41,610 bases of DNA from IMG/VR virus record IMGVR_UViG_2537561977_000020, one strand, 5' to 3'. Positions 5,890 through 14,112 of the stretch are shown here, piece by piece. Each line of letters starts with the position of its first letter. The first letter of the stretch is position 1. The position numbers and the translations under genes are program-made. The notes beneath the pieces were generated by a model, which worked only from the letters and a program-made list of their open reading frames with translations, was not told the origin of the DNA and did not search any database. Source of the stretch: a virus. Lineage: Duplodnaviria > Heunggongvirae > Uroviricota > Caudoviricetes.

Positions 5890-6654
5890 TTAACGGGGTA
5901 ACTCTGGTGGAATATATCTGCCGATGCGGTCTTCTATGGTCGGCAGAATGCACATGCTGTCGTTAAAGCGGTCATGCAGTTTGTAGACCAGTTTCGAATC
6001 CATTTTTTCGAGAGCAGGCATTAACTGCGCTCGCCAGATTTCATTAATACGTCGGAAGTTATGACAGACGGCGCGGAGATTGTTGATGAACATTTCCTTT
6101 TCTGCGTCACTGATTCCGGTCTGTGCTTTCTGAATGCATTTCGTGCTGCCATTCCGGTAGAAGCGTTCCTGGGCAGCGACAGCCTCATCCACGGATGGAT
6201 AACACCCTACGTAAACGCTTTTCTCTCCGTTCCATGCGTAGGCTCTGTACGGGTTGTATTTGCTCTGGTGATGGTAAACCATCTTCGGCAGGCACTCCCT
6301 GTGCGGCGCCAGTATCGTGGAGGACTGCTGGTGCAGTTTGCGTTCGCATTCGATGAAGTATCGGCGTATCTGGCGACCTTTTTCGTTACGCTCGACCATC
6401 GCCAGTTCTTTGGCTGTATCGAGGGTGAGGTGGTAGTCCTTACAAAGAACATTTTTACGCTTTCCAGTTTTGGAAAGCGTTACGATATAATCCTGATTTT
6501 CAACGAATTTATAGTCTGCAATTCGTGATGTAATCCATGCTGCAAACACTTTCCCTACCCCAAGGAATGCGTGCAGATCGCGAGCATTGCAGAGCAGGGT
6601 GATTTCGTTGGCGATAGCGCCGTTGAAAACGGGGATGAGTTGAGCTGCCATCAC
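5890..6654 (-). CDS. antirepressor (AntA-like N-domain + KilA-C-like C-domain)
   Basis: N-terminal IPVFNGAIANEITLLCNARDLHAFLGVGKVFAAWITSRI; C-terminal ~145 aa nearly identical to ORF 10126..10899. Confidence 0.6.
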   Translation of the reverse strand: MMAAQLIPVFNGAIANEITLLCNARDLHAFLGVGKVFAAWITSRIADYKFVENQDYIVTLSKTGKRKNVLCKDYHLTLDTAKELAMVERNEKGRQIRRYFIECERKLHQQSSTILAPHRECLPKMVYHHQSKYNPYRAYAWNGEKSVYVGCYPSVDEAVAAQERFYRNGSTKCIQKAQTGISDAEKEMFINNLRAVCHNFRRINEIWRAQLMPALEKMDSKLVYKLHDRFNDSMCILPTIEDRIGRYIPPELPR

Positions 6655-7106: not shown

Positions 7107-7136
7107 AATATACCTATTGGTCATCGCGGATGTCAA
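7107..7136 (-). promoter_or_regulatory. sigma70-like promoter of antirepressor cassette 1
   Basis: Minus strand TTGACA (7136-7131), 18-bp spacer, TATATT (7112-7107); conserved copy at 11121..11150. Confidence 0.55.
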
Positions 7137-10059
7137 TCTTTCCGGTATCTGTAAGATTCGAATCCTCCGGCGTTTAGTGGAATGCTCGTGGCCCAGTCAG
7201 GAACGGTTGCCAGTAACTGGCTGACATGTTCTGCTGAGTAATCGGGTGAGTCAGGGGCCTCACTTATAATTTCATCGTGTACCGTCAGCACAATGCTGTA
7301 ACCGGCATCTTCGATAAGCGGCATGTTTCCGGCCAGAACGTCGCGGGCGGCCGCCTGGGTGACGTTCTCCACCAGCTTTCCGCCGTAGGTTTTGAGTCGT
7401 TGCCATTTACGCGAATAAGAGTTAACACCCATATAGGTGATATTCCCTTTTTCGATAACCGGAGACGGGTAGCATACAGCGCGTCCGGATGGTAGCTGTA
7501 TGCGCAGCCACGCGCCATCGCGGCGGATTTTAAGATAACCGCAATACAATGTTTTTTGCGGTGTGGCGATTGCAGTGCGGACGGTGCGCTCCAGTTCGTA
7601 CCAGAAATCGCAGGTCGCCGGGTGCGCCCTGCGCCAGAGACGTTTAAGTGAGTCGCAGGCGATAAATACCCGTTCAGAAAGGCCGTAGGTTGACTTACGT
7701 TTAACCGATTCGTAGTACCAGCTTTTCGCCTCGCGGATAACATCGCGGGGAATGTTTGGCAGTGCGGCGTTCGCCAGCTCGTCGAGATCGAGACTGTAAA
7801 CCAGTGCAAAAGTGATGAAGGCCGACACACCACCACCGTACCCGCAGTTGTGAACGATTAAATGTCCTGAGTCGGTTTTAATCGTGAATCTGTTTCGAGG
7901 CCCCGCATGTGCAATGTCGTAAACATCGCTCCAGCTCGTCGATACGTTTTTGCAGGTCTGCGATTTTTCTTCTGTTGCGGTTATTGTCTGCTTTGGAGAC
8001 GAACTGGATATTACCCGGTTCGTAGCCTTTGTTATTGTCGATGCGATCCATTTCCAACTTTGGGTCATTAAACCCTTTGATTTCCCTGACGTGTAGCAAA
8101 AAAGCTCTTTTATCTTCCTGCCATAGCTGACAAACGTAGATCCCCCGACCGCCGTAGTTGTGAAACAACCTGTTGGTGGGTTTATGGCAACGGCTGATTG
8201 CGGCAGACAATCGGTTAAGTAGCCTGCGACGGGTTTCGTCATCTGCAATAGCATCCGCATAGCATAAGAATTTTTTACGATACTCGTTATGCTTTTTCTT
8301 TGCGCAAATGTTACATCGGGTACTTTTTCCTTTAAGGAGATTGCTGATTGTTGCGGTGTGAGGCATTGCACCACATTTGCATTTGACAAGTATCCTTCGG
8401 TCTTTTCCGGGTACTTTTTCCAGTTCTTTGATAACGGTAAGTTCTCCGAAGCAAGTTCCAGGCTTTGGTGAAGCGTATTTTTGTTTAAAGCGATAAGGTT
8501 TGCCAGCTTCCATCCAGTAGGGGTTAGCACCTGGTGATCCGGGGTCATTTTTGCTCCGTCCAGTGATATTAAGGCTTTGTACCCCCTGTAAATCAGTCCT
8601 TCGTGTTTTACCCATTCTTCTCCGTCCCATAACAAATCCGCGCCCGAAATACTAACAAGCGGCTTATAGCCTTTATCGGTGAGCACTAAAGTATCCGGAG
8701 CTATGCAAGCCAATTCCAGCACTTTACCTATCTGGCGCTGGTCTTTGGTGACGCGCTCAACTTCAATTCCGTAAGCTTTTGCATACGCCAGTTTATATAA
8801 GTCCGGACCCGCTCCGGCGTCGTACTCTCTGAATGCATTCAGTTTCCATTCTTCTCCCGCCAGCCATGCCAGCATACGGCCTTCAATGTTCGACAAGTCA
8901 CTTACCACCAGTTTTTACCTGTTGGCGCGATAATGCAGCCACGTAACGCTGAACTGGTTAGTTCCATGATATTGTCAAACAGCAGGTCTGCACATCCGGC
9001 TTTCAGTGCTTCGATGCCTTCGTCTATTTGTTCCTGTTTTAGTGAAGGGCGGGGAAGATTCTGGGGCTGGAATAGCCGTCCGGCCCAGCGCCCGGTACGT
9101 GACGCCCCGCAGAACTGTAGCGTACCGCGTAAGCGCCCGTCGTGGCTTACGCCTTTCATCAGTGCCTTGTATTTACTGGTGCTGGTAGTACTGGCTTGCT
9201 GGCGGATAGCCAGCAGTTCTTTCACGGCAGATGGTAAATCGGGGTCGGCTATACGACGTTCCAGGGTACTGCGTTGCATGTCTGGTAGCTCCACACCGTA
9301 GGATTCAACGATGTGCTTAATCAACGCGTCCCGTTGTGTGGCTGCCTGCACTTCGCCATCAGTCATTTCCTGTGTACGCTTTGCCAGGCGCTTTTGCTCC
9401 TGGTCTACCGCTTCGATCGCAGCGCGCGCGAGTTGAATGTCCATGCAGACGCCCCGGTCGTTGATCTGCTGATCACGATGCCAGAGCGCCAGTTCTGTCC
9501 CCTGATAATTCCACTTCGGCAGACGTTTATAGACTTCGCGCATTGCCTCGATATCCAGCCCGGCGTAAGCAACAAAGCGCCGCCATTCTTCCGGGTGGGT
9601 TTTACTGGTGGCCCGACGCAGTTTGCTGTTTTTCGGGCGTGGCTTACAGAACAGCTGGATCAGCGCTTTACCTTCTTTGTCCTTCGCTTTGTCTTGCGGG
9701 ACGCCGAGTATTTCGCAGAGTTCCCCCAGAGACCCCGGGAGGCCGTGCGCCAGCGCCTGCACCATTGTGTCGCGCCAACGTTCGACTGGCGGTGCCAGTC
9801 GCGGCATTGCATAACGCAGGACGGTGCGGTCGAAGTGAGAGTTATGAAAATAAAGCAGGGTCTCAGGGGCTGCGATTGCTTCGTATAAGCCGTGTGGAAT
9901 ACCACCACCGGCAGTGATATCCCACACGTTTACGGGCCCGTCGTTGATAGCCCATGCGAACAGCATCACTTCAACGCCTTCGGCATACGCATGGGTACCG
10001 TTCGTAATAGGGATTTCGCAATAGGTTTCCAGGTCGCCCCATAGAATGTTTTCAGACAA
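7133..10059 (-). CDS. family A DNA polymerase (3'-5' exo + pol), frame-broken and intein-containing
   Basis: Exo motifs [33 protein letters not shown]; pol motifs [26 protein letters not shown] (motif A), [10 protein letters not shown]|CGYGGG (motif B split), LTVHDEI (motif C). Two track ORFs (8902..10059, 7133..8908) joined by -1 shift at T5 run 8912-8916. TTG start 10059 with GGAGGA upstream. Confidence 0.7.
7847..8707 (-). mobile_element. intein inserted in DNA polymerase motif B
   Basis: Begins Cys after KVLELA (CIAPDTLVL...), block B TPDHQVLT, ends ...HLIVHN followed by +1 Cys (CGYGGG); 287 codons. Confidence 0.6.
7878..8630 (-). CDS. HNH homing endonuclease ORF nested in the intein, different frame from Hint blocks
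   Basis: [12 protein letters not shown]...[28 protein letters not shown] plus Cys-rich N-region (CKCG...RCNIC); recognisable domain from about 8513 (MEAGKPYRF); frame is -1 relative to intein splicing blocks. Confidence 0.55.
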   Translation of the reverse strand: MGRRRMGKTRRTDLQGVQSLNITGRSKNDPGSPGANPYWMEAGKPYRFKQKYASPKPGTCFGELTVIKELEKVPGKDRRILVKCKCGAMPHTATISNLLKGKSTRCNICAKKKHNEYRKKFLCYADAIADDETRRRLLNRLSAAISRCHKPTNRLFHNYGGRGIYVCQLWQEDKRAFLLHVREIKGFNDPKLEMDRIDNNKGYEPGNIQFVSKADNNRNRRKIADLQKRIDELERCLRHCTCGASKQIHD

Positions 10060-10125: not shown

Positions 10126-10899
10126 TTAACGAGGTAAAGTGGGTGGAATATATCTGCCGATGCGGTCTTCTATGGTCGGCAGAGCACACATGCTGTCGCT
10201 GAAGCGATCATGCAACTGGTAAACCAGTTTCGAATCCATTTTTTCGAGGGCAGGCATTAACTGCGAGCGCCAGATTTCATTGATGCGCCGGAAGTTATGA
10301 CAGATGGCGCGGAGATTGTTGATGAACATTTCCTTCTCTGCGTCATTGATTGCTGTCTGCACTTTCTGAATACGCTTTGTGCTGCCGTTCCGGTAAAAGT
10401 CCTTCTGCGCAGCGACAGCCTCATCCACGGTTGGATAGCACCCGACGTAAACGTTCTTCTCTCCGTTCCATGCGTAGGCTCTGTACGGGTTGTATTTGCT
10501 ACTGTGGTGGTAAACCATTTTCGGCAGACACTCCCTGTGCGGCGCCAGTACCGTGGAGGACTGCGGAATAGCGGTTTCTTTCTCTATAAGATCAAGCACC
10601 CAACGGCGAAATTCTTTTGCTACTGGCGTTGTTGCGAACATCGCTACCAGGTGAGCACCGCGTAGAGAGAAAATGCGGTTATTCATTTGGACGGAGCCGG
10701 TTTTCCTAACGACCGTCAATTTGACGGTCGTTGTCATTTCAACTGAAAACTCATCCCGATTACGGTCATAAATACGAGCGACTGAGTCCGTTCGTGAGTA
10801 TTCCAGCGCGGTCGCCAGAGTGGCAGCGGTGAACCAAGATTTGCCGTTATGTTCGATCGTTTCGAGAATGTGGGATTTGAATACGAGTTGGGTACTCAT
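10126..10899 (-). CDS. Bro-N/KilA-C type antirepressor-like protein
   Basis: Probable start MSTQLVFKSH at 10899 (track ORF extends to 11064 through the leader); Bro-N-like N-domain; C-terminal domain paralogous to 5890..6654. Confidence 0.55.
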   Translation of the reverse strand: MSTQLVFKSHILETIEHNGKSWFTAATLATALEYSRTDSVARIYDRNRDEFSVEMTTTVKLTVVRKTGSVQMNNRIFSLRGAHLVAMFATTPVAKEFRRWVLDLIEKETAIPQSSTVLAPHRECLPKMVYHHSSKYNPYRAYAWNGEKNVYVGCYPTVDEAVAAQKDFYRNGSTKRIQKVQTAINDAEKEMFINNLRAICHNFRRINEIWRSQLMPALEKMDSKLVYQLHDRFSDSMCALPTIEDRIGRYIPPTLPR

Positions 10900-10937
10900 G
10901 GTTTTATGCCCTAGTAGATATTTTGAATTTACCCTTT

Positions 10938-11016
10938 TTGAGAGGGTGGTCGGGCGCTCAAAACCGCTACTAGTCGGCGGGCGTATTTCCCTTCGGAAGG
11001 GTGTTGTATTAGCCGC
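10938..11016 (-). promoter_or_regulatory. structured leader element, cassette 2
   Basis: GGTCGGGCG (10938-10946) / CGCCCGACC (11008-11016) enclosing 61 nt with CCCUUCGGAAGGG hairpin; arms covary with cassette 1. Confidence 0.45.
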
Positions 11017-11120
11017 ACGCCCGACCATTGAATTCTCAATATCATGGACATAAAAAATCCGCATGACTGACGGGCGCGGTTTCCGCTAGTAGAAAAGGTG
11101 TTTTGAGCACCATGAAGCGG

Positions 11121-11225: not shown

Positions 11226-11773
11226 TTAAATTAGTGCTTCAGCATCAGCACTTTCGCTGATATCGTCGAAATCGTCAGCGCTTGCCACTCCGCCGCCAGC
11301 GAATGCATCGCCGTCTCGCAGGAACTGGACTCCGCCGAGTGAGGCATTAATGCGTTTACCGAAATTATTGTCCTGTGCCCAGATATCGATAACGGCGTTT
11401 ACATAGCACCCTGCATAGGGACGTCCATCAGCCTGAATTAGTGGCGAACGATCGCGATCAAGAACAGCTGGGCGCGCTTTGTTAGCAGCGTTCAGGAAGA
11501 AATTGCCGGGAAAGCCTTCATACTCTGCTTTTTCATCACCATCATGCAGGCACAGATTGAGTTTTTCTCCAGCTGGTTATAAATGGACTCCAACTTCTCC
11601 CCCCATTTTTCCTTCGCTACCTGCTTCATAGCTTTACGGATTTCTTCCAGTTGTGGGTGTTTGGGAGACATTAAAAATACTGCGGAGAAACGCGGATCGC
11701 CTTCGCCGTTTACAGTTTTAGCTTCAAACAGAGCAGGAAAAGCTAATCTCACGTTATTTAATTTAATCTTCAT
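11226..11773 (-). CDS. DUF2815-type phage single-strand DNA-binding protein, frame-broken
   Basis: N-terminus MKIKLNNVRLAFPALFEAK; continues in -1 frame after T5 run 11562-11566 as LCLHDGDEKAEYEGFPGNFF...ending 11226; track shows only 11492..11773. Confidence 0.6.
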
Positions 11774-12285
11774 TTCAAAACTCCTATAAATTCTATGGAT
11801 TCTTTTTCCGCTGCTTTACGCGCAATTACAGCTTCCGCTACGGAATTAAATAGACCTAAATGTTTTTCTTTGCCGTGCAGCTTTATATAAGCTCTCCACT
11901 TATTACGGTGACGGCAAACCCCAACGGCACCGCTTTTATTATCAGAGCGTAAGGATTGGTTAATGTTATTTTCGGTAGAGGTTACAAGTCGTAGATTAGA
12001 AAGGGTGTAATTGCTCCGATTTTTGTCTATGTGATCTACCTCTAATCCCGAGGGGATACTACCGTTATGCATAACCCAGACGATGCGATGTAACAACATT
12101 TTCCGACCGTTTACACTTACGTGATAATACCCGTCCGGCCTTATATGTCCCGCTTGCTTATCTGCATATTTAGCATTCCAGGACAAATAGTCTCGCCGGG
12201 TTTTAAAATGGGTGAGCGGACGATATTTCCATATTAAAACGCCATTGTGATACCGGAAGCATTCATTTAAATATTCTTGATCCAA
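11770..12285 (-). CDS. HNH homing endonuclease (HNH + AP2-like DNA-binding domain)
   Basis: EVDHIDKNRSNYTLSNLRLVTSTEN and SGAVGVCRHRNKWRAYIKLHGKEKHLGLF. Confidence 0.65.
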   Translation of the reverse strand: MDQEYLNECFRYHNGVLIWKYRPLTHFKTRRDYLSWNAKYADKQAGHIRPDGYYHVSVNGRKMLLHRIVWVMHNGSIPSGLEVDHIDKNRSNYTLSNLRLVTSTENNINQSLRSDNKSGAVGVCRHRNKWRAYIKLHGKEKHLGLFNSVAEAVIARKAAEKESIEFIGVLK

Positions 12286-12299
12286 ATAACCTCCTTAAA

Positions 12300-13601
12300 T
12301 CAGATGAGGTCTGCGGTTAGCGTATCGTCGGATACGTCGTCGAAATCATTTACAGGGTTGATATTGAGTGCGGGGTGTGGGTCTGACTCGGGAACGACGG
12401 TGGGTTTACCATCAGCTCGTGTTATCAGTGCCTCGACTTTTGACCAACGGCGCGGACTGGCCTTTTTGATAAGTTTTTCGGCTTTTGTGGGACTAATAAG
12501 TTTAAAGTCGAATACTTCTTCAGTTTTGTACCTGAACTGGTCCTTCAGAAGTGCGCGAGCTGCCTCTTCATCACTCCAGGCCCGGTTACCTTGTTTTCCT
12601 GTTACCAGTTTAAACCCCGGTACCGGATGTCCGGCATTGAGTTCATTGTGAACCCGGTCCCGTACTGCCTTTAGCCAGGATTCAATAAAGTCGGCCTGAC
12701 TATAGATCTCCGCAAGCTGCTCAATGGTTAACAGAGGTACACGTGCGCTGGCATTGGTGATTATTTCGCTGACAGGCTTTGTCAGATCTTCAAAATCGCT
12801 GGCCGCTGTTTGTAAATGCTGCATTTTCTGGGCAGTGCAAATAGCTTTTGCTTTACAGAAGCGGCACTGTTTTTCTCCAGGTATGAAGTTTTCCAGCGGT
12901 AGTGTCTCAATGCCTTCGCATTCAGCAATATTGAGAACAAGGATCGCACTGGTTGCGGCCTCCAGCGCCCGTTCACCGAAAGACTGAAGTTCCTGTACGG
13001 TTAACGACCATTCTGAAACGTGGTTGAGCCTTGGCTGGTGAATAAATAATCTTACAGTTTCAAAGTCATACAGCATGCTGAATTGTTCAAGCGCACCCAG
13101 AGCATATAGTTGTAGTTGCTCATTTTGTTCTGCATCAATGCGGACGCCTTTGCCATATTTCAGGTCGTGGATTTGTAATTCGTTACCAGCGATGATTATG
13201 CCGTCGGCAGTTCCGAAAGATTCTTCCACCCCCGTTATATGTGAGAAATCAACACGTTGTTCAACCAATAGTTCATTATTCTGTGCAAGAGTCCAGACCG
13301 TATCAACATACCGGCCAACGGCTTCGACCATTTCATCATCCACCTGTGGGCCAGATGTATCATCAGGATTTTCGCGAAGGGGGTATGAGCCGAGAAACAT
13401 AGAAACATTGCATCCGGCGTAGTGTTCCGGGTGGCTTTGCCTGTTTCGTAGAACTTTTTCAGCAAGTGCGTGCGCTGCAGTGCCCTCGATTGCAAAAGTT
13501 GTTTCTTTATCCGGTTGTGTGGCCTCCAGCGCCAGACTACCCGCACACCTTAGCCAACGATGTGCAGATGATGGTGATAATCGTGCATGAACATCAGGCA
13601 T
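12300..13601 (-). CDS. DUF2800-type PD-(D/E)XK nuclease
   Basis: N-terminal [16 protein letters not shown] and C-terminal Cys cluster [10 protein letters not shown], recalled for DUF2800 proteins that accompany DUF2815 and PolA in phage replication modules. Confidence 0.6.
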
Positions 13602-14112
13602 TCATGACCTCCTGAATGTGTTTTCGCCGCGCAGCCGCTGCGAGTTGTTTGGTGGGGAAATGACCGAGAGATTTGAATTTGCCGTTTACTCGTCCGTAGG
13701 CCTGCCACGGTTTTTTCTTACCTTCGCTGAACCGAACGCCAACCACTCCAGATTTATTTTTTCTGGTGTGAGAGTTAGCCCTGTTTTGTGAAAGAGAGGC
13801 CCAGCGAAGATTTACCGCCCGGTTGTCATCTCGACGACCGTTAATGTGGTCAACTTCAGGGGCAGATCCGGGAATAAATGCTGCGGCAACGAGACGGTGT
13901 ATTTTGACGGTTACCTTTTTACCCGCTTTCCATAAGTCGGTGATTAGATATCCGTCTGTGTCATAGCGTGGTTTTAGTGACTTACCTTTAATGGGATAGG
14001 TGCAGCCAGAACCTTTGTTTAATACAGTTCTGTCGAGGCTTCTCAGGTTGCCAGCGTCTGAAATCTGGTAAATGCCTTCAAAGCCTGAAATATCCTTCCA
14101 GGCTTCCGGCAT
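13594..14112 (-). CDS. HNH homing endonuclease (NUMOD4 + HNH + AP2-like)
   Basis: [79 protein letters not shown]. Confidence 0.65.

What the first reader, a model, noticed from the sequence alone, without database searches (positions are those of the whole stretch)
7847..8707. Intein interrupting motif B of a phage family-A DNA polymerase
The extein sequence [10 protein letters not shown] / [10 protein letters not shown] reconstitutes the family-A motif B (R...K...YG) once 287 codons are removed. The insert starts with Cys, has a TxxH block B, and ends with HN followed by Cys. Inteins at polymerase active-site motifs are known, but this one lies in a temperate enterobacterial prophage alongside three free-standing HNH genes.
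Basis: partly seen in the sequence, partly recalled or inferred. Interest (0 to 1): 0.55.

Follow-up and report, generated by a model that had tools for sequence, protein, structure and literature searches.

The report
Polymerase intein hiding an out-of-frame nuclease gene
The insert is a real self-splicing intein in a prophage DNA polymerase gene, and its middle is also read in a second frame as a separate 250-residue nuclease gene that probably spreads the element, an arrangement described so far only in a few other inteins.

Summary
On the minus strand, 8707..7847 is a 287-codon insert (Cys1, TPDH, HN|Cys) that splits motif B of a family-A polymerase. It is absent from 155 of 159 related E. 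coli prophage polymerases.

The central 170 codons are not an endonuclease domain in the polymerase frame. A 250-residue HNH-type endonuclease ORF (8630..7878) lies in the +2 frame of the same strand.

In 83 of 83 related loci the HNH ORF sits in the same frame relation inside a large PolA ORF. These loci include Jerseyvirus, Pseudomonas and Vibrio phages and IMG/VR contigs.

- **Polymerase frame kept open:** 0 stops in 74 of 74 distinct loci, against 5.2 expected per locus.
- **Selection switches frame:** the most variable codon position moves to the HNH frame in the middle of the intein.
- **Start codons:** ATG starts for the HNH are built from conserved Hint Trp codons.
- **Homing footprint:** a burst of substitutions flanks the insertion site.

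Out-of-frame intein endonucleases were first reported in 2025-26 preprints for other inteins, so this is a large new variant rather than a new principle. In this window the polymerase also carries a 1-nt homopolymer frameshift upstream. Splicing, HNH expression and cleavage are inferred, not shown.

The parts
8902..10059 (-). N-terminal part of the family-A DNA polymerase (385-aa ORF), cut off from the rest by a frameshift in this window
   Evidence: ORF list. It is continuous with the C-part in L002, L004 and L005 as a 944-aa CDS.
8912..8916 (.). Homopolymer run (A5 on the coding strand) one base shorter than in five related copies; causes the polymerase frameshift
   Evidence: Alignment and sequence comparison (GGTAAAAACTGG against GGTAAAAAACTGG). 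Coordinates.
8708..8908 (-). N-extein segment: motif A ([10 protein letters not shown]) to the first half of motif B ([10 protein letters not shown])
   Evidence: Pfam DNA_pol_A match to residues 3-65, profile 157-214. Translation.
7847..8707 (-). Intein: 287 codons, stop-free in the polymerase frame
   Evidence: It is absent from 155/159 E. coli alleles and 3 phages.
8438..8707 (-). Hint N-terminal splicing region (intein codons 1-90; block A Cys1, LWDGEEW, block B)
   Evidence: Conserved in the polymerase frame, with the most variable position at polymerase codon position 3. Family profile hits PDB inteins.
8534..8545 (-). Block B TPDH (TxxH)
   Evidence: T55 and H58 are invariant in 28 relatives.
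7928..8437 (-). Polymerase-frame 'linker' (intein codons 91-260): poorly conserved Ser/Thr/Ala-rich reading of DNA whose selected frame is the HNH frame
   Evidence: Per-frame conservation, codon-position diversity, stop-avoidance test, composition equal to the shuffle expectation, AF2 pLDDT 25-38.
7847..7927 (-). Hint C-terminal splicing region (blocks [29 protein letters not shown])
   Evidence: H121 and N122 of the mini-intein alignment are invariant.
7844..7846 (-). +1 Cys codon of the C-extein (Leu in the intein-less allele)
7133..7846 (-). C-extein: rest of motif B (CGYGGG) to the polymerase C-terminus
7878..8630 (-). Nested HNH-type endonuclease ORF (250 aa plus stop) in frame +2 relative to the polymerase. 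It overlaps intein codons 27-277, including block B and most of block F.
   Evidence: phrog_374 'HNH endonuclease' E 4.7e-37. 166 homologues, E down to 1e-72, 98-100% coverage. Frames. AF2 pLDDT 80.
8613..8615 (-). ATG-2, the family-wide start of the HNH ORF, formed by GAA|TGG (Glu-Trp of the Hint motif); GGAG lies 4 nt upstream. ATG-1 is at 8630..8628, formed by TTA|TGG.
8304..8381 (-). CxC...CxxC zinc-ribbon of the HNH protein
   Evidence: C84, C86, C106 and C109 are invariant. Profile similarity to Cys4 zinc modules.
7974..8054 (-). Nuclease core [27 protein letters not shown] (HNH_3-like beta-beta-alpha, with Arg in place of the first His)
   Evidence: hhalign to the window's own HNH_3 gene, E 9e-5. 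D, R, Y, N, F and N are 74/74 invariant. Strands 193-196 and 208-211 plus a helix in the model.
8708..8775 (-). Upstream tract of dense substitutions relative to the intein-less allele (putative co-conversion tract)
   Evidence: 22 differences in the first 60 nt (5 more in the next 60), against about 1% elsewhere.
7815..7846 (-). Downstream tract of dense substitutions relative to the intein-less allele
   Evidence: 8 differences in 30 nt.

Best explanation
This is a class-1 intein inserted six residues after the motif-B lysine of a prophage family-A DNA polymerase. Its homing endonuclease is not a domain of the intein polypeptide. It is a separate gene overprinted in the +2 (= -1) reading frame of the same DNA.

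Proposed mechanism:
1. Ribosomes in the polymerase frame read through 287 stop-free codons.
2. The Hint-N part (codons 1-90) and the Hint-C part (codons 261-287) fold together across a 170-residue linker of no specific sequence and splice the polymerase.
3. From the same mRNA, ribosomes start at an ATG made by the xxA|TGG codon pair of the conserved Hint 'EW' motif. They produce a 245-250-residue protein with a disordered tail, a zinc ribbon and an HNH_3-like nuclease.
4. That nuclease cuts intein-less polymerase alleles near motif B. Repair from the intein-bearing copy copies in the intein together with short flanking tracts.

Shown here: the anatomy, purifying selection on both frames, conserved start codons, and a homing-like footprint. 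Inferred: splicing, translation of the HNH ORF, and its cleavage specificity.
For: - **The nested gene is real.** PHROG HNH families match at E 4.7e-37. There are 166 homologues of about 247 aa with 98-100% coverage. The AF2 model has pLDDT 80, with residues 50-240 at 82-96 and the tail 1-45 disordered. The core aligns to a Pfam-confirmed HNH_3 gene of the same window, E 9e-5.
- **The nesting is constant.** In 83/83 related loci the roughly 250-aa ORF lies in the same frame relation inside a 600-1280-aa ORF, and the third frame is closed.
- **The polymerase frame is kept open by selection.** The middle 170 codons hold 0 stops in 74/74 distinct loci. Synonymous shuffling predicts 5.2 per locus, with a median P(0 stops) of 0.001. 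The third frame shows 10.1 observed against 8.9 expected. Free-standing relatives have 2-15 stops in that frame.
- **Selection switches frame.** Nucleotide diversity peaks at polymerase codon position 3 in the exteins and Hint ends (0.60-0.65). In codons 91-260 it peaks at polymerase position 2, which is HNH position 3 (0.62). Per-frame amino-acid conservation crosses over at about codons 71-90 and 260.
- **Start codons are selected.** A-ending codons before the two Hint Trp codons occur in 56/73 and 61/73 loci, against 9.6 and 23.1 expected. Every locus keeps at least one usable NTG start.
- **Hint identity.** The catalytic residues are invariant and the family profile hits only inteins at the top of the PDB list.
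- **Homing footprint.** The intein occurs in 4 of 159 alleles. There are 22 substitutions in the 60 nt upstream and 8 in the 30 nt downstream, against about 1% elsewhere. A 100% identical intein sits in a polymerase with a different 3' end.
Against: - No expression, splicing or cleavage data exist.
- Pfam detects neither a Hint nor an HNH domain, and NCBIfam intein_Nterm is below its cut-off.
- The first His of the HNH motif is Arg in all members, so the catalytic mechanism is not the textbook one.
- The Shine-Dalgarno signal is weak in most relatives.
- The AF2 model of the in-frame intein is poor everywhere (mean pLDDT 39, five-sequence alignment), so it does not show that the Hint fold closes over the linker.
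- In this window the polymerase is frameshifted upstream. If that is real, this copy makes no full-length precursor.
- The 74 loci are related, so the P values overstate independence.
Confidence: 0.8

Rival explanations
1. The insert is an ordinary intein whose middle is a decayed in-frame endonuclease or a plain linker. The alternative-frame ORF is a chance or dead reading frame. This is in effect the first reader's view and the GenBank view of the Jerseyvirus homologue ('encoding splicing domains').
For: The in-frame reading is open. GenBank annotates the homologous Jerseyvirus intein with splicing domains only. PGAP annotates no nested gene.
Against: The alternative ORF matches HNH families at E 1e-37 to 1e-72 and is intact (240 aa or more) in 73/74 distinct loci. 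It carries the selected codon periodicity. It folds with pLDDT 80, while the in-frame middle scores 25-38.
Confidence: 0.02
2. The HNH moiety is not translated from its own start. It is made by programmed -1 ribosomal frameshifting out of the polymerase frame, giving an N-extein-Hint-N-HNH fusion protein.
For: The HNH frame is the -1 frame of the polymerase. The Shine-Dalgarno signal is weak. Database proteins P0100 and SS3e P0091 read as Hint-N fused in frame to HNH.
Against: No conserved slippery heptamer is seen in the alignment of the only possible zone. Two NTG start positions are strongly selected. The P0100 contig is frameshifted in several places and its Hint-C is in another frame. The SS3e match is broken into two pieces.
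Confidence: 0.06
3. The nested HNH gene is expressed but no longer drives homing of this intein. It might be a domesticated or generalist nuclease (phage competition, DNA processing), or it might target another site.
For: The catalytic His is replaced by Arg. The same intein family sits at three neighbouring positions (K+2, K+3, K+6) and at a second polymerase site, so specificity is not obviously fixed. Free-standing relatives exist in unrelated contexts.
Against: The gene is always physically inside the intein (83/83). Distribution is sporadic and flanking substitution tracts are present at the E. coli site. The DR motif is shared with widespread free-standing homing-type genes.
Confidence: 0.1
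4. The insert does not splice. Either the polymerase tolerates it as a loop (as proposed for the ShiLan insertion in a phage methylase), or the gene is dead in prophages.
For: Pfam finds no Hint domain. This window's polymerase is frameshifted and one E. coli copy has an indel inside the intein. A non-intein insert with a hidden HNH is described in PMC11855218.
Against: All class-1 catalytic residues are invariant and under polymerase-frame purifying selection. The family profile hits solved inteins. The insert splits the motif-B helix of the active site. Homologues occur in virulent Jerseyviruses, which must replicate with this polymerase (the last step is inference).
Confidence: 0.02

Closest known systems
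[quoted passage not shown]
   Same: The homing endonuclease is encoded on the same strand inside the intein, in 'reading frame 3' relative to the intein. The in-frame reading is stop-free and has no recognisable fold. The authors propose an origin by invasion of an intein by a free-standing endonuclease gene. Distribution is sporadic.
   Different: The host phyla differ (Proteobacteria and Firmicutes phages and prophages), as does the host gene site (PolA motif B). The nuclease family differs: a zinc ribbon plus an HNH_3-like DRxD core, with best match phrog_374 and endonuclease VII only a secondary match at E 3e-7. Here the ORF overlaps about 64 codons of Hint-N (including block B) and about 17 of Hint-C. 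[quoted passage not shown] Here the start codons are built from conserved Hint codons.
Jerseyvirus DNA polymerase intein (e.g. Salmonella phage vB_SenS-Ent1 gp37, GenBank HE775250.1, 'intein-containing DNA polymerase precursor')
   Same: It has a homologous Hint domain and a homologous nested HNH ORF (about 49% identity) in the same frame relation within PolA motif B.
   Different: It is inserted four residues earlier (GKA|C...HN|CELGLGY, K+2 rather than K+6). The GenBank annotation mentions splicing domains only and no endonuclease.
ShiLan insertion: hidden out-of-frame HNH in a mycobacteriophage DNA methylase (Arsenault et al. 2025, PMC11855218)
   Same: An out-of-frame HNH gene sits inside an insert that stays open in the host gene's frame. 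The question of how the hidden ORF is translated is also open there.
   Different: ShiLan has no detectable splicing domains and is thought to stay in the protein as a loop. The present insert has complete, conserved class-1 intein blocks.
Canonical homing inteins with in-frame LAGLIDADG or HNH domains (e.g. PI-SceI, PI-MtuI RecA intein; established knowledge)
   Same: A Hint splicing domain is split by a homing-endonuclease-coding segment at the usual position between blocks B and F. The insert lies in a conserved active-site motif. The allele distribution is presence/absence.
   Different: In those inteins the endonuclease is a domain of the intein polypeptide. Here it is a separate translation product from another frame, and the intein polypeptide carries a 170-residue spacer of no specific sequence instead.
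Free-standing HNH homing endonuclease genes of phages (e.g. Enterococcus phage ZJGS2 and Escherichia phage VEcB 'HNH endonuclease'; T4 mobE-type genes)
   Same: The protein family is the same at 27-34% identity, with the same DRID...Y.P.N.R(F/W)...N..N core.
   Different: Those genes lie between or beside genes and have 2-15 stops in the frame that is always open in the nested members.

Membership tests
Intein (Hint domain, class 1) | N-terminal Cys/Ser nucleophile in block A | tested here: met
   Cys1 ([10 protein letters not shown]) is invariant in 28/28 aligned relatives.
Intein (Hint domain, class 1) | Block B TxxH | tested here: met
   TPDH at 8545..8534; T55 and H58 are invariant.
Intein (Hint domain, class 1) | C-terminal His-Asn followed by Cys/Ser/Thr at +1 | tested here: met
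   LIVHN|C in the window. HN is invariant; +1 is Cys in most relatives and Ser in several.
Intein (Hint domain, class 1) | Sequence similarity to known Hint domains above a curated threshold | tested here: inconclusive
   Pfam gives no hit at E<=10. NCBIfam intein_Nterm scores 15.9 bits against a 24.5 cut-off. A profile of 28 family members hits solved inteins only: Neq Pol 8e-5, Spl DnaX mini-intein 5e-4 over 109 positions, Mtu RecA 0.007. One relative also hits Pfam Vint at 5.8e-5, below its cut-off.
Intein (Hint domain, class 1) | In-frame insertion in a conserved host motif, with intein-less homologues that are colinear once it is removed | tested here: met
   The 861-bp insert is absent from 155/159 E. 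coli alleles and 3 phages. K and Y of motif B are eight residues apart after removal.
Intein (Hint domain, class 1) | Protein splicing activity | not testable with these tools
   Needs expression of the precursor. Inferred from purifying selection on the blocks.
HNH (beta-beta-alpha-Me) homing endonuclease | HNH core motif and beta-beta-alpha topology | tested here: met
HNH (beta-beta-alpha-Me) homing endonuclease | First histidine (general base) of the motif | tested here: not met
   The position is Arg (DRID) in 74/74 nested members and in the free-standing relatives examined.
HNH (beta-beta-alpha-Me) homing endonuclease | Match to a curated Pfam or NCBIfam HNH model | tested here: not met
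   No Pfam or NCBIfam family matches the 250-aa ORF.
HNH (beta-beta-alpha-Me) homing endonuclease | Cleavage of the element-free allele and biased inheritance | not testable with these tools
   Indirect support only: 4/159 allele distribution and flanking substitution tracts.
Inteins with an out-of-frame homing endonuclease (Gosselin et al. 2025 type) | Endonuclease ORF within the intein, same strand, different frame, with the intein frame left open | tested here: met
   Frames. Stop-avoidance test.
Inteins with an out-of-frame homing endonuclease (Gosselin et al. 2025 type) | Endonuclease VII-like nuclease | tested here: inconclusive
   phrog_1035 'endonuclease VII' matches at only E 3e-7, far behind the HNH families. 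No direct comparison with their sequences was possible.
Inteins with an out-of-frame homing endonuclease (Gosselin et al. 2025 type) | Secondary ORF lies outside the splicing domain | tested here: not met
   The ORF spans intein codons 27-277 and overlaps block B and most of block F.

The most novel reading that the evidence does not exclude
The window holds an E. coli member of a very large, so far unrecognised clade of family-A polymerase inteins. A search of cluster representatives found 2,595 clusters at 50% identity, 177 of them at E<=1e-30. In this reading the homing endonuclease is always overprinted in an alternative frame, and that is the stable, selected state rather than a passing accident.

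Observations that fit this reading:
- The clade occupies three adjacent positions in motif B and a second site (TYGGKL|C...HN|CEN).
- It uses both alternative frames.
- It builds the endonuclease start codons from conserved Hint Trp codons.
- It tolerates a 170-residue spacer of no specific sequence in the splicing domain.

If true, many database 'mini' or 'endonuclease-less' inteins are mis-classified. Translation of the host protein and of the endonuclease would also be coupled on one mRNA.
Probability: 0.5. Interest if true: 0.7.

Novelty: new variant of a known kind. Interest (0 to 1): 0.6.

Why it matters
Inteins are defined as in-frame elements whose endonuclease is a domain of the same polypeptide. 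Here one stretch of DNA is under selection in two frames at once: as an open, content-free spacer for protein splicing and as a separate nuclease gene.

- **Annotation.** Annotation pipelines and intein surveys miss such endonucleases. PGAP and GenBank do so here, so counts of 'endonuclease-less' inteins are probably inflated.
- **Origin of homing inteins.** The result supports the view that they arise when free-standing endonuclease genes invade splicing elements.
- **Intein engineering.** It shows that a Hint domain can apparently accept a 170-residue insert of no specific sequence.
- **Experimental system.** Because this copy lives in an E. coli prophage, it offers a tractable system for two open questions: how hidden endonuclease ORFs are translated, and whether they drive homing. 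Earlier examples are in actinophages and cyanobacteria.

Tried and rejected
- **Pfam and NCBIfam on the insert and on the nested ORF.** No usable hit. The evidence had to come from PHROGs, family profiles and comparative analysis.
- **phmmer of the single intein against PDB.** Only E of about 1. The family profile was needed.
- **Apparent in-frame Hint-HNH fusions.** These were P0100 and SS3e P0091. The P0100 contig is multiply frameshifted and its Hint-C is in a different frame. The SS3e match is split in two. Both were rejected as evidence for an in-frame version.
- **Mycobacteriophage tblastn hits.** These are free-standing cluster-C HNH genes that match the core only. They are not the inteins of the 2025 preprint.
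- **AF2 of the in-frame intein.** With a 5-sequence alignment the model was too poor (mean pLDDT 39) to say anything about the Hint fold.
- **Fold and profile searches of the HNH protein.** Foldseek against PDB gave nothing. The HNH profile against PDB sequences gave only zinc-ribbon similarity.
- **Word-indexed search with the mini-intein profile.** It found one protein. The exhaustive search was informative instead.
- **Selection on linker composition.** The hydrophobic fraction is 0.285 observed against 0.264 in shuffles. This gives no evidence for selection beyond stop avoidance.
- **Slippery frameshift site.** No conserved one is visible near the HNH start.
- **The 2026 dnaX-intein preprint.** It could be seen only as a title and the start of its abstract.
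Full report
**Observation.** The polymerase lies on the minus strand. ORF 8908..7133 (591 aa) contains [10 protein letters not shown], then [10 protein letters not shown]...MTPDHQVLT...[27 protein letters not shown], then [10 protein letters not shown]. The insert is exactly 8707..7847, 287 codons with no stop. Pfam DNA_pol_A matches the N-extein up to profile position 214 and stops where the insert begins.

Megablast shows the same polymerase at 96-98% identity without these 861 bp in three Escherichia phages and in 155 of 159 E. coli chromosomes. Four chromosomes carry the insert at 99.8-100% identity. After the insert is removed in silico, the gene is colinear with the intein-less allele, which reads GKVMELG|LGYGGG. 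The motif-B Lys and Tyr are eight residues apart in both. The observation and its coordinates are therefore confirmed.

**Context.** The locus is a prophage next to yfhL. It carries an integrase, a LexA-like repressor, SNF2, Rha, Ant and Bro-N genes, DUF2800 and DUF2815 genes, and terminase, capsid and tail genes.

In this window the polymerase is split into 10059..8902 and 8908..7133 by an A5 run where five relatives have A6. I cannot tell whether this is an assembly error or a real inactivation. In three E. coli genomes the gene is one 944-codon CDS.

Two free-standing HNH_3 genes are confirmed at 11770..12285 and 13594..14112.

**The hidden gene.** Of the three forward frames of the intein, the polymerase frame has 0 stops and frame +1 has 22. 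Frame +2 holds a 250-codon ORF, 8630..7878. That ORF matches phrog_374 'HNH endonuclease' at E 4.7e-37, along with several other HNH families. It has 166 database homologues of about 247 residues, with E down to 1e-72 and 98-100% coverage.

By contrast, the polymerase-frame reading of the middle is Ser/Thr/Ala-rich and matches nothing.

AlphaFold gives the +2-frame protein a mean pLDDT of 80. Residues 1-45 are disordered and residues 50-240 score 82-96. The in-frame intein scores 25-38 through its middle, although that model is poor overall.

**Family-wide test of dual coding.** I fetched 83 loci that encode relatives of the HNH protein at 42-65% identity. They include Jerseyvirus Ent1, Pseudomonas phage MR14, Vibrio phage 97.13 and 80 IMG/VR contigs.

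- **Constant nesting.** In all 83 loci the roughly 250-aa ORF lies inside a 600-1280-aa ORF that is one frame ahead of it, and the remaining frame is closed. The large ORF is PolA with the same Hint blocks at motif B.
- **Stop avoidance.** Across 74 distinct loci, the 170 middle codons have no stop in the polymerase frame. Synonymous-codon shuffling of the HNH gene predicts 5.2 stops per locus, with a median probability of zero stops of 0.001. The third frame behaves as expected, with 10.1 observed and 8.9 expected.
- **Natural control.** Free-standing relatives from Enterococcus, Staphylococcus, Ralstonia, Klebsiella and E. coli phages have 2-15 stops in that frame.
- **Codon periodicity.** Nucleotide diversity peaks at polymerase codon position 3 in the exteins and in the Hint parts not overlapped by the HNH ORF (0.60-0.65). 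In codons 91-260 it peaks at polymerase position 2, which is HNH position 3 (0.62).
- **Overlap zones.** The N-terminal tail of the HNH ORF, which overlaps Hint-N, follows the polymerase frame. In codons 71-90 both frames appear constrained.
- **Linker composition.** It equals the shuffle expectation, so I see selection only against stops.

**Translation start.** The HNH frame begins at two NTG codons 15 nt apart. Each is made from the last base of a codon plus the TGG of a conserved Hint tryptophan (L|W and E|W of LWDGxEW).

A-ending synonymous codons before these tryptophans occur in 56/73 and 61/73 loci, against 9.6 and 23.1 expected from extein codon usage. In 25 of the 74 distinct loci a stop separates the two starts, so only the second can serve. 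In the two loci that lack the second start, the first is an open ATG.

In the window, GGAG lies 4 nt before ATG-2 at 8615. In most relatives only a GGGAYGG stretch is present, which is a weak Shine-Dalgarno signal.

**Is it an intein?** Cys1, Thr55, His58 and the terminal His-Asn are invariant, and +1 is Cys or Ser. Curated models fail: Pfam gives nothing and NCBIfam intein_Nterm is below its cut-off.

A profile of Hint-N plus Hint-C from 28 relatives finds only inteins among its ten best PDB hits. These are the Neq Pol intein at 8e-5, the Spl DnaX mini-intein at 5e-4 over 109 positions, and the Mtu RecA mini-inteins at about 0.01. With the exact intein-less alleles added, membership is well supported. 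Splicing itself is inferred.

An invariant CxC...CxxC zinc ribbon precedes the core. The first His of the motif is Arg in every member, and in the free-standing relatives examined that show the motif. This is therefore a distinct HNH_3-like subfamily, and I file it as 'HNH-like' with that reservation.

**Homing footprint.** Between the intein-bearing and intein-less E. coli alleles there are 22 substitutions in the 60 nt upstream of the site and 8 in the 30 nt downstream. Most of the rest of the gene differs by about 1%. These changes turn GKVMELG|L into GKVLELA|C, so the +1 Cys arrived with the intein.

The identical intein also sits in a polymerase whose 3' end follows the intein-less allele (L004). 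This pattern, together with the 4/159 distribution, is what double-strand-break-driven homing with co-conversion leaves behind.

**Variation in the family.**
- **Insertion positions.** The intein is at K+6 in 52 loci (the window type), K+2 in 18 (Jerseyviruses, MR14) and K+3 in 3. The classes are mixed among HNH clusters.
- **Other frame.** Streptococcus phage Javan255 has the K+6 intein with a related HNH ORF in the other alternative frame.
- **Second site.** L010, L042 and L073 carry a second, related intein at TYGGKL|C...HN|CEN, with its own nested HNH ORF in frame +1.
- **Extra inteins.** Cluster representatives P0185 and P0224 show two and three such inteins by their protein sequences alone. 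Their DNA was not examined for nested ORFs.
- **Loss of the nuclease.** P0166 has a roughly 160-residue mini-intein at the same site. In L086 the HNH ORF is truncated while the polymerase frame stays open.
- **Size of the family.** An exhaustive search with the in-frame intein finds 2,595 cluster representatives at E<=1e-3 and 177 at E<=1e-30. Most of the best 150 listed match over a stretch of about 287 residues inside proteins of 900-1350 residues. All eight representatives scanned with Pfam are family-A polymerases.

**Comparison with the literature.**
- Gosselin, Arsenault and Gogarten (bioRxiv 2025) describe actinophage inteins with an endonuclease VII-like gene 'in reading frame 3' and call this unreported.
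- Arsenault et al. 2025 describe a hidden out-of-frame HNH in a non-intein methylase insert.
- A 2026 preprint title reports an out-of-frame endonuclease in the cyanobacterial dnaX intein (the text was not readable).
- Searches for this arrangement in PolA or Jerseyvirus inteins found nothing. GenBank describes the Ent1 intein as 'encoding splicing domains' only.

The principle therefore has recent precedent. This family, its size, its deep overlap with the splicing blocks and its start-codon construction appear to be new.

**Mechanism and confidence.** I consider the dual-coding anatomy established. Three steps are inferred: that the intein splices, that the HNH ORF is translated from ATG-2 (or ATG-1), and that its product cuts intein-less motif-B alleles. 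Overall confidence is 0.8. The rivals are a spurious ORF, frameshift-made fusion, a nuclease with another role, and a non-splicing insert. Together they hold about 0.2, and most of that is the possibility that the nuclease no longer drives homing, or does not only drive homing.

**Caveats.** The loci are phylogenetically related, so the P values are upper bounds on significance. The window's own copy may be a pseudogene because of the upstream frameshift. No tool here can show expression or activity.

Noticed in passing
window 8912-8916 (A5 run on the coding strand): The polymerase gene is frameshifted in this window by a homopolymer one base shorter than in five related copies. The E. coli VL40 copy (L003) instead has an extra A inside the intein, near window 8390.
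   Followed up: partly
window 11770-12285 and 13594-14112 (minus strand): Two free-standing HNH_3 endonuclease genes flank the DUF2800 gene; the second also has a NUMOD4 motif. The first is present in three of the five fetched relatives that cover its position. The second is absent from the three fetched loci that reach its position (L096, L003, L001). This is the pattern expected of mobile endonuclease genes.
   Followed up: partly
window 5890-6654 and 10126-11064 (minus strand): The AntA-domain and Bro-N-domain ORFs on either side of the polymerase share a 197-residue C-terminal module at 71% identity. Part of it weakly resembles the C-terminal region of the HNH_3 proteins.
   Followed up: no
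L010, L042, L073 (second intein); window equivalent 7390-7364 is uninterrupted: Close relatives carry a second, homologous intein at TYGGKL|C...HN|CEN in the same polymerase. It has its own nested HNH ORF, this time in frame +1. Cluster representatives P0185 and P0224 show two and three such inteins by their protein sequences; their DNA was not examined.
   Followed up: partly
L093 (Streptococcus phage Javan255, DNA polymerase I): The same motif-B (K+6) intein is present in a Firmicutes prophage, but the nested HNH ORF is in the other alternative frame (polymerase = HNH + 2).
   Followed up: partly
L006-L088, insertion junctions: Homologous inteins sit at three adjacent positions in motif B: K+2, K+3 and K+6. 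The positions are mixed among HNH sequence clusters, which suggests repeated small shifts of the insertion site.
   Followed up: partly
P0166 (cluster representative) and L086: These are decay products. P0166 has a roughly 160-residue mini-intein at the same site with the HNH region deleted. In L086 the HNH ORF is cut to 143 codons while the polymerase frame stays open.
   Followed up: no
L096 (E. coli O121 copy of the prophage): In the O121 genome the tail region of this prophage is broken up by IS600, IS421, IS66 and IS1 insertions, so that copy is probably defective.
   Followed up: no
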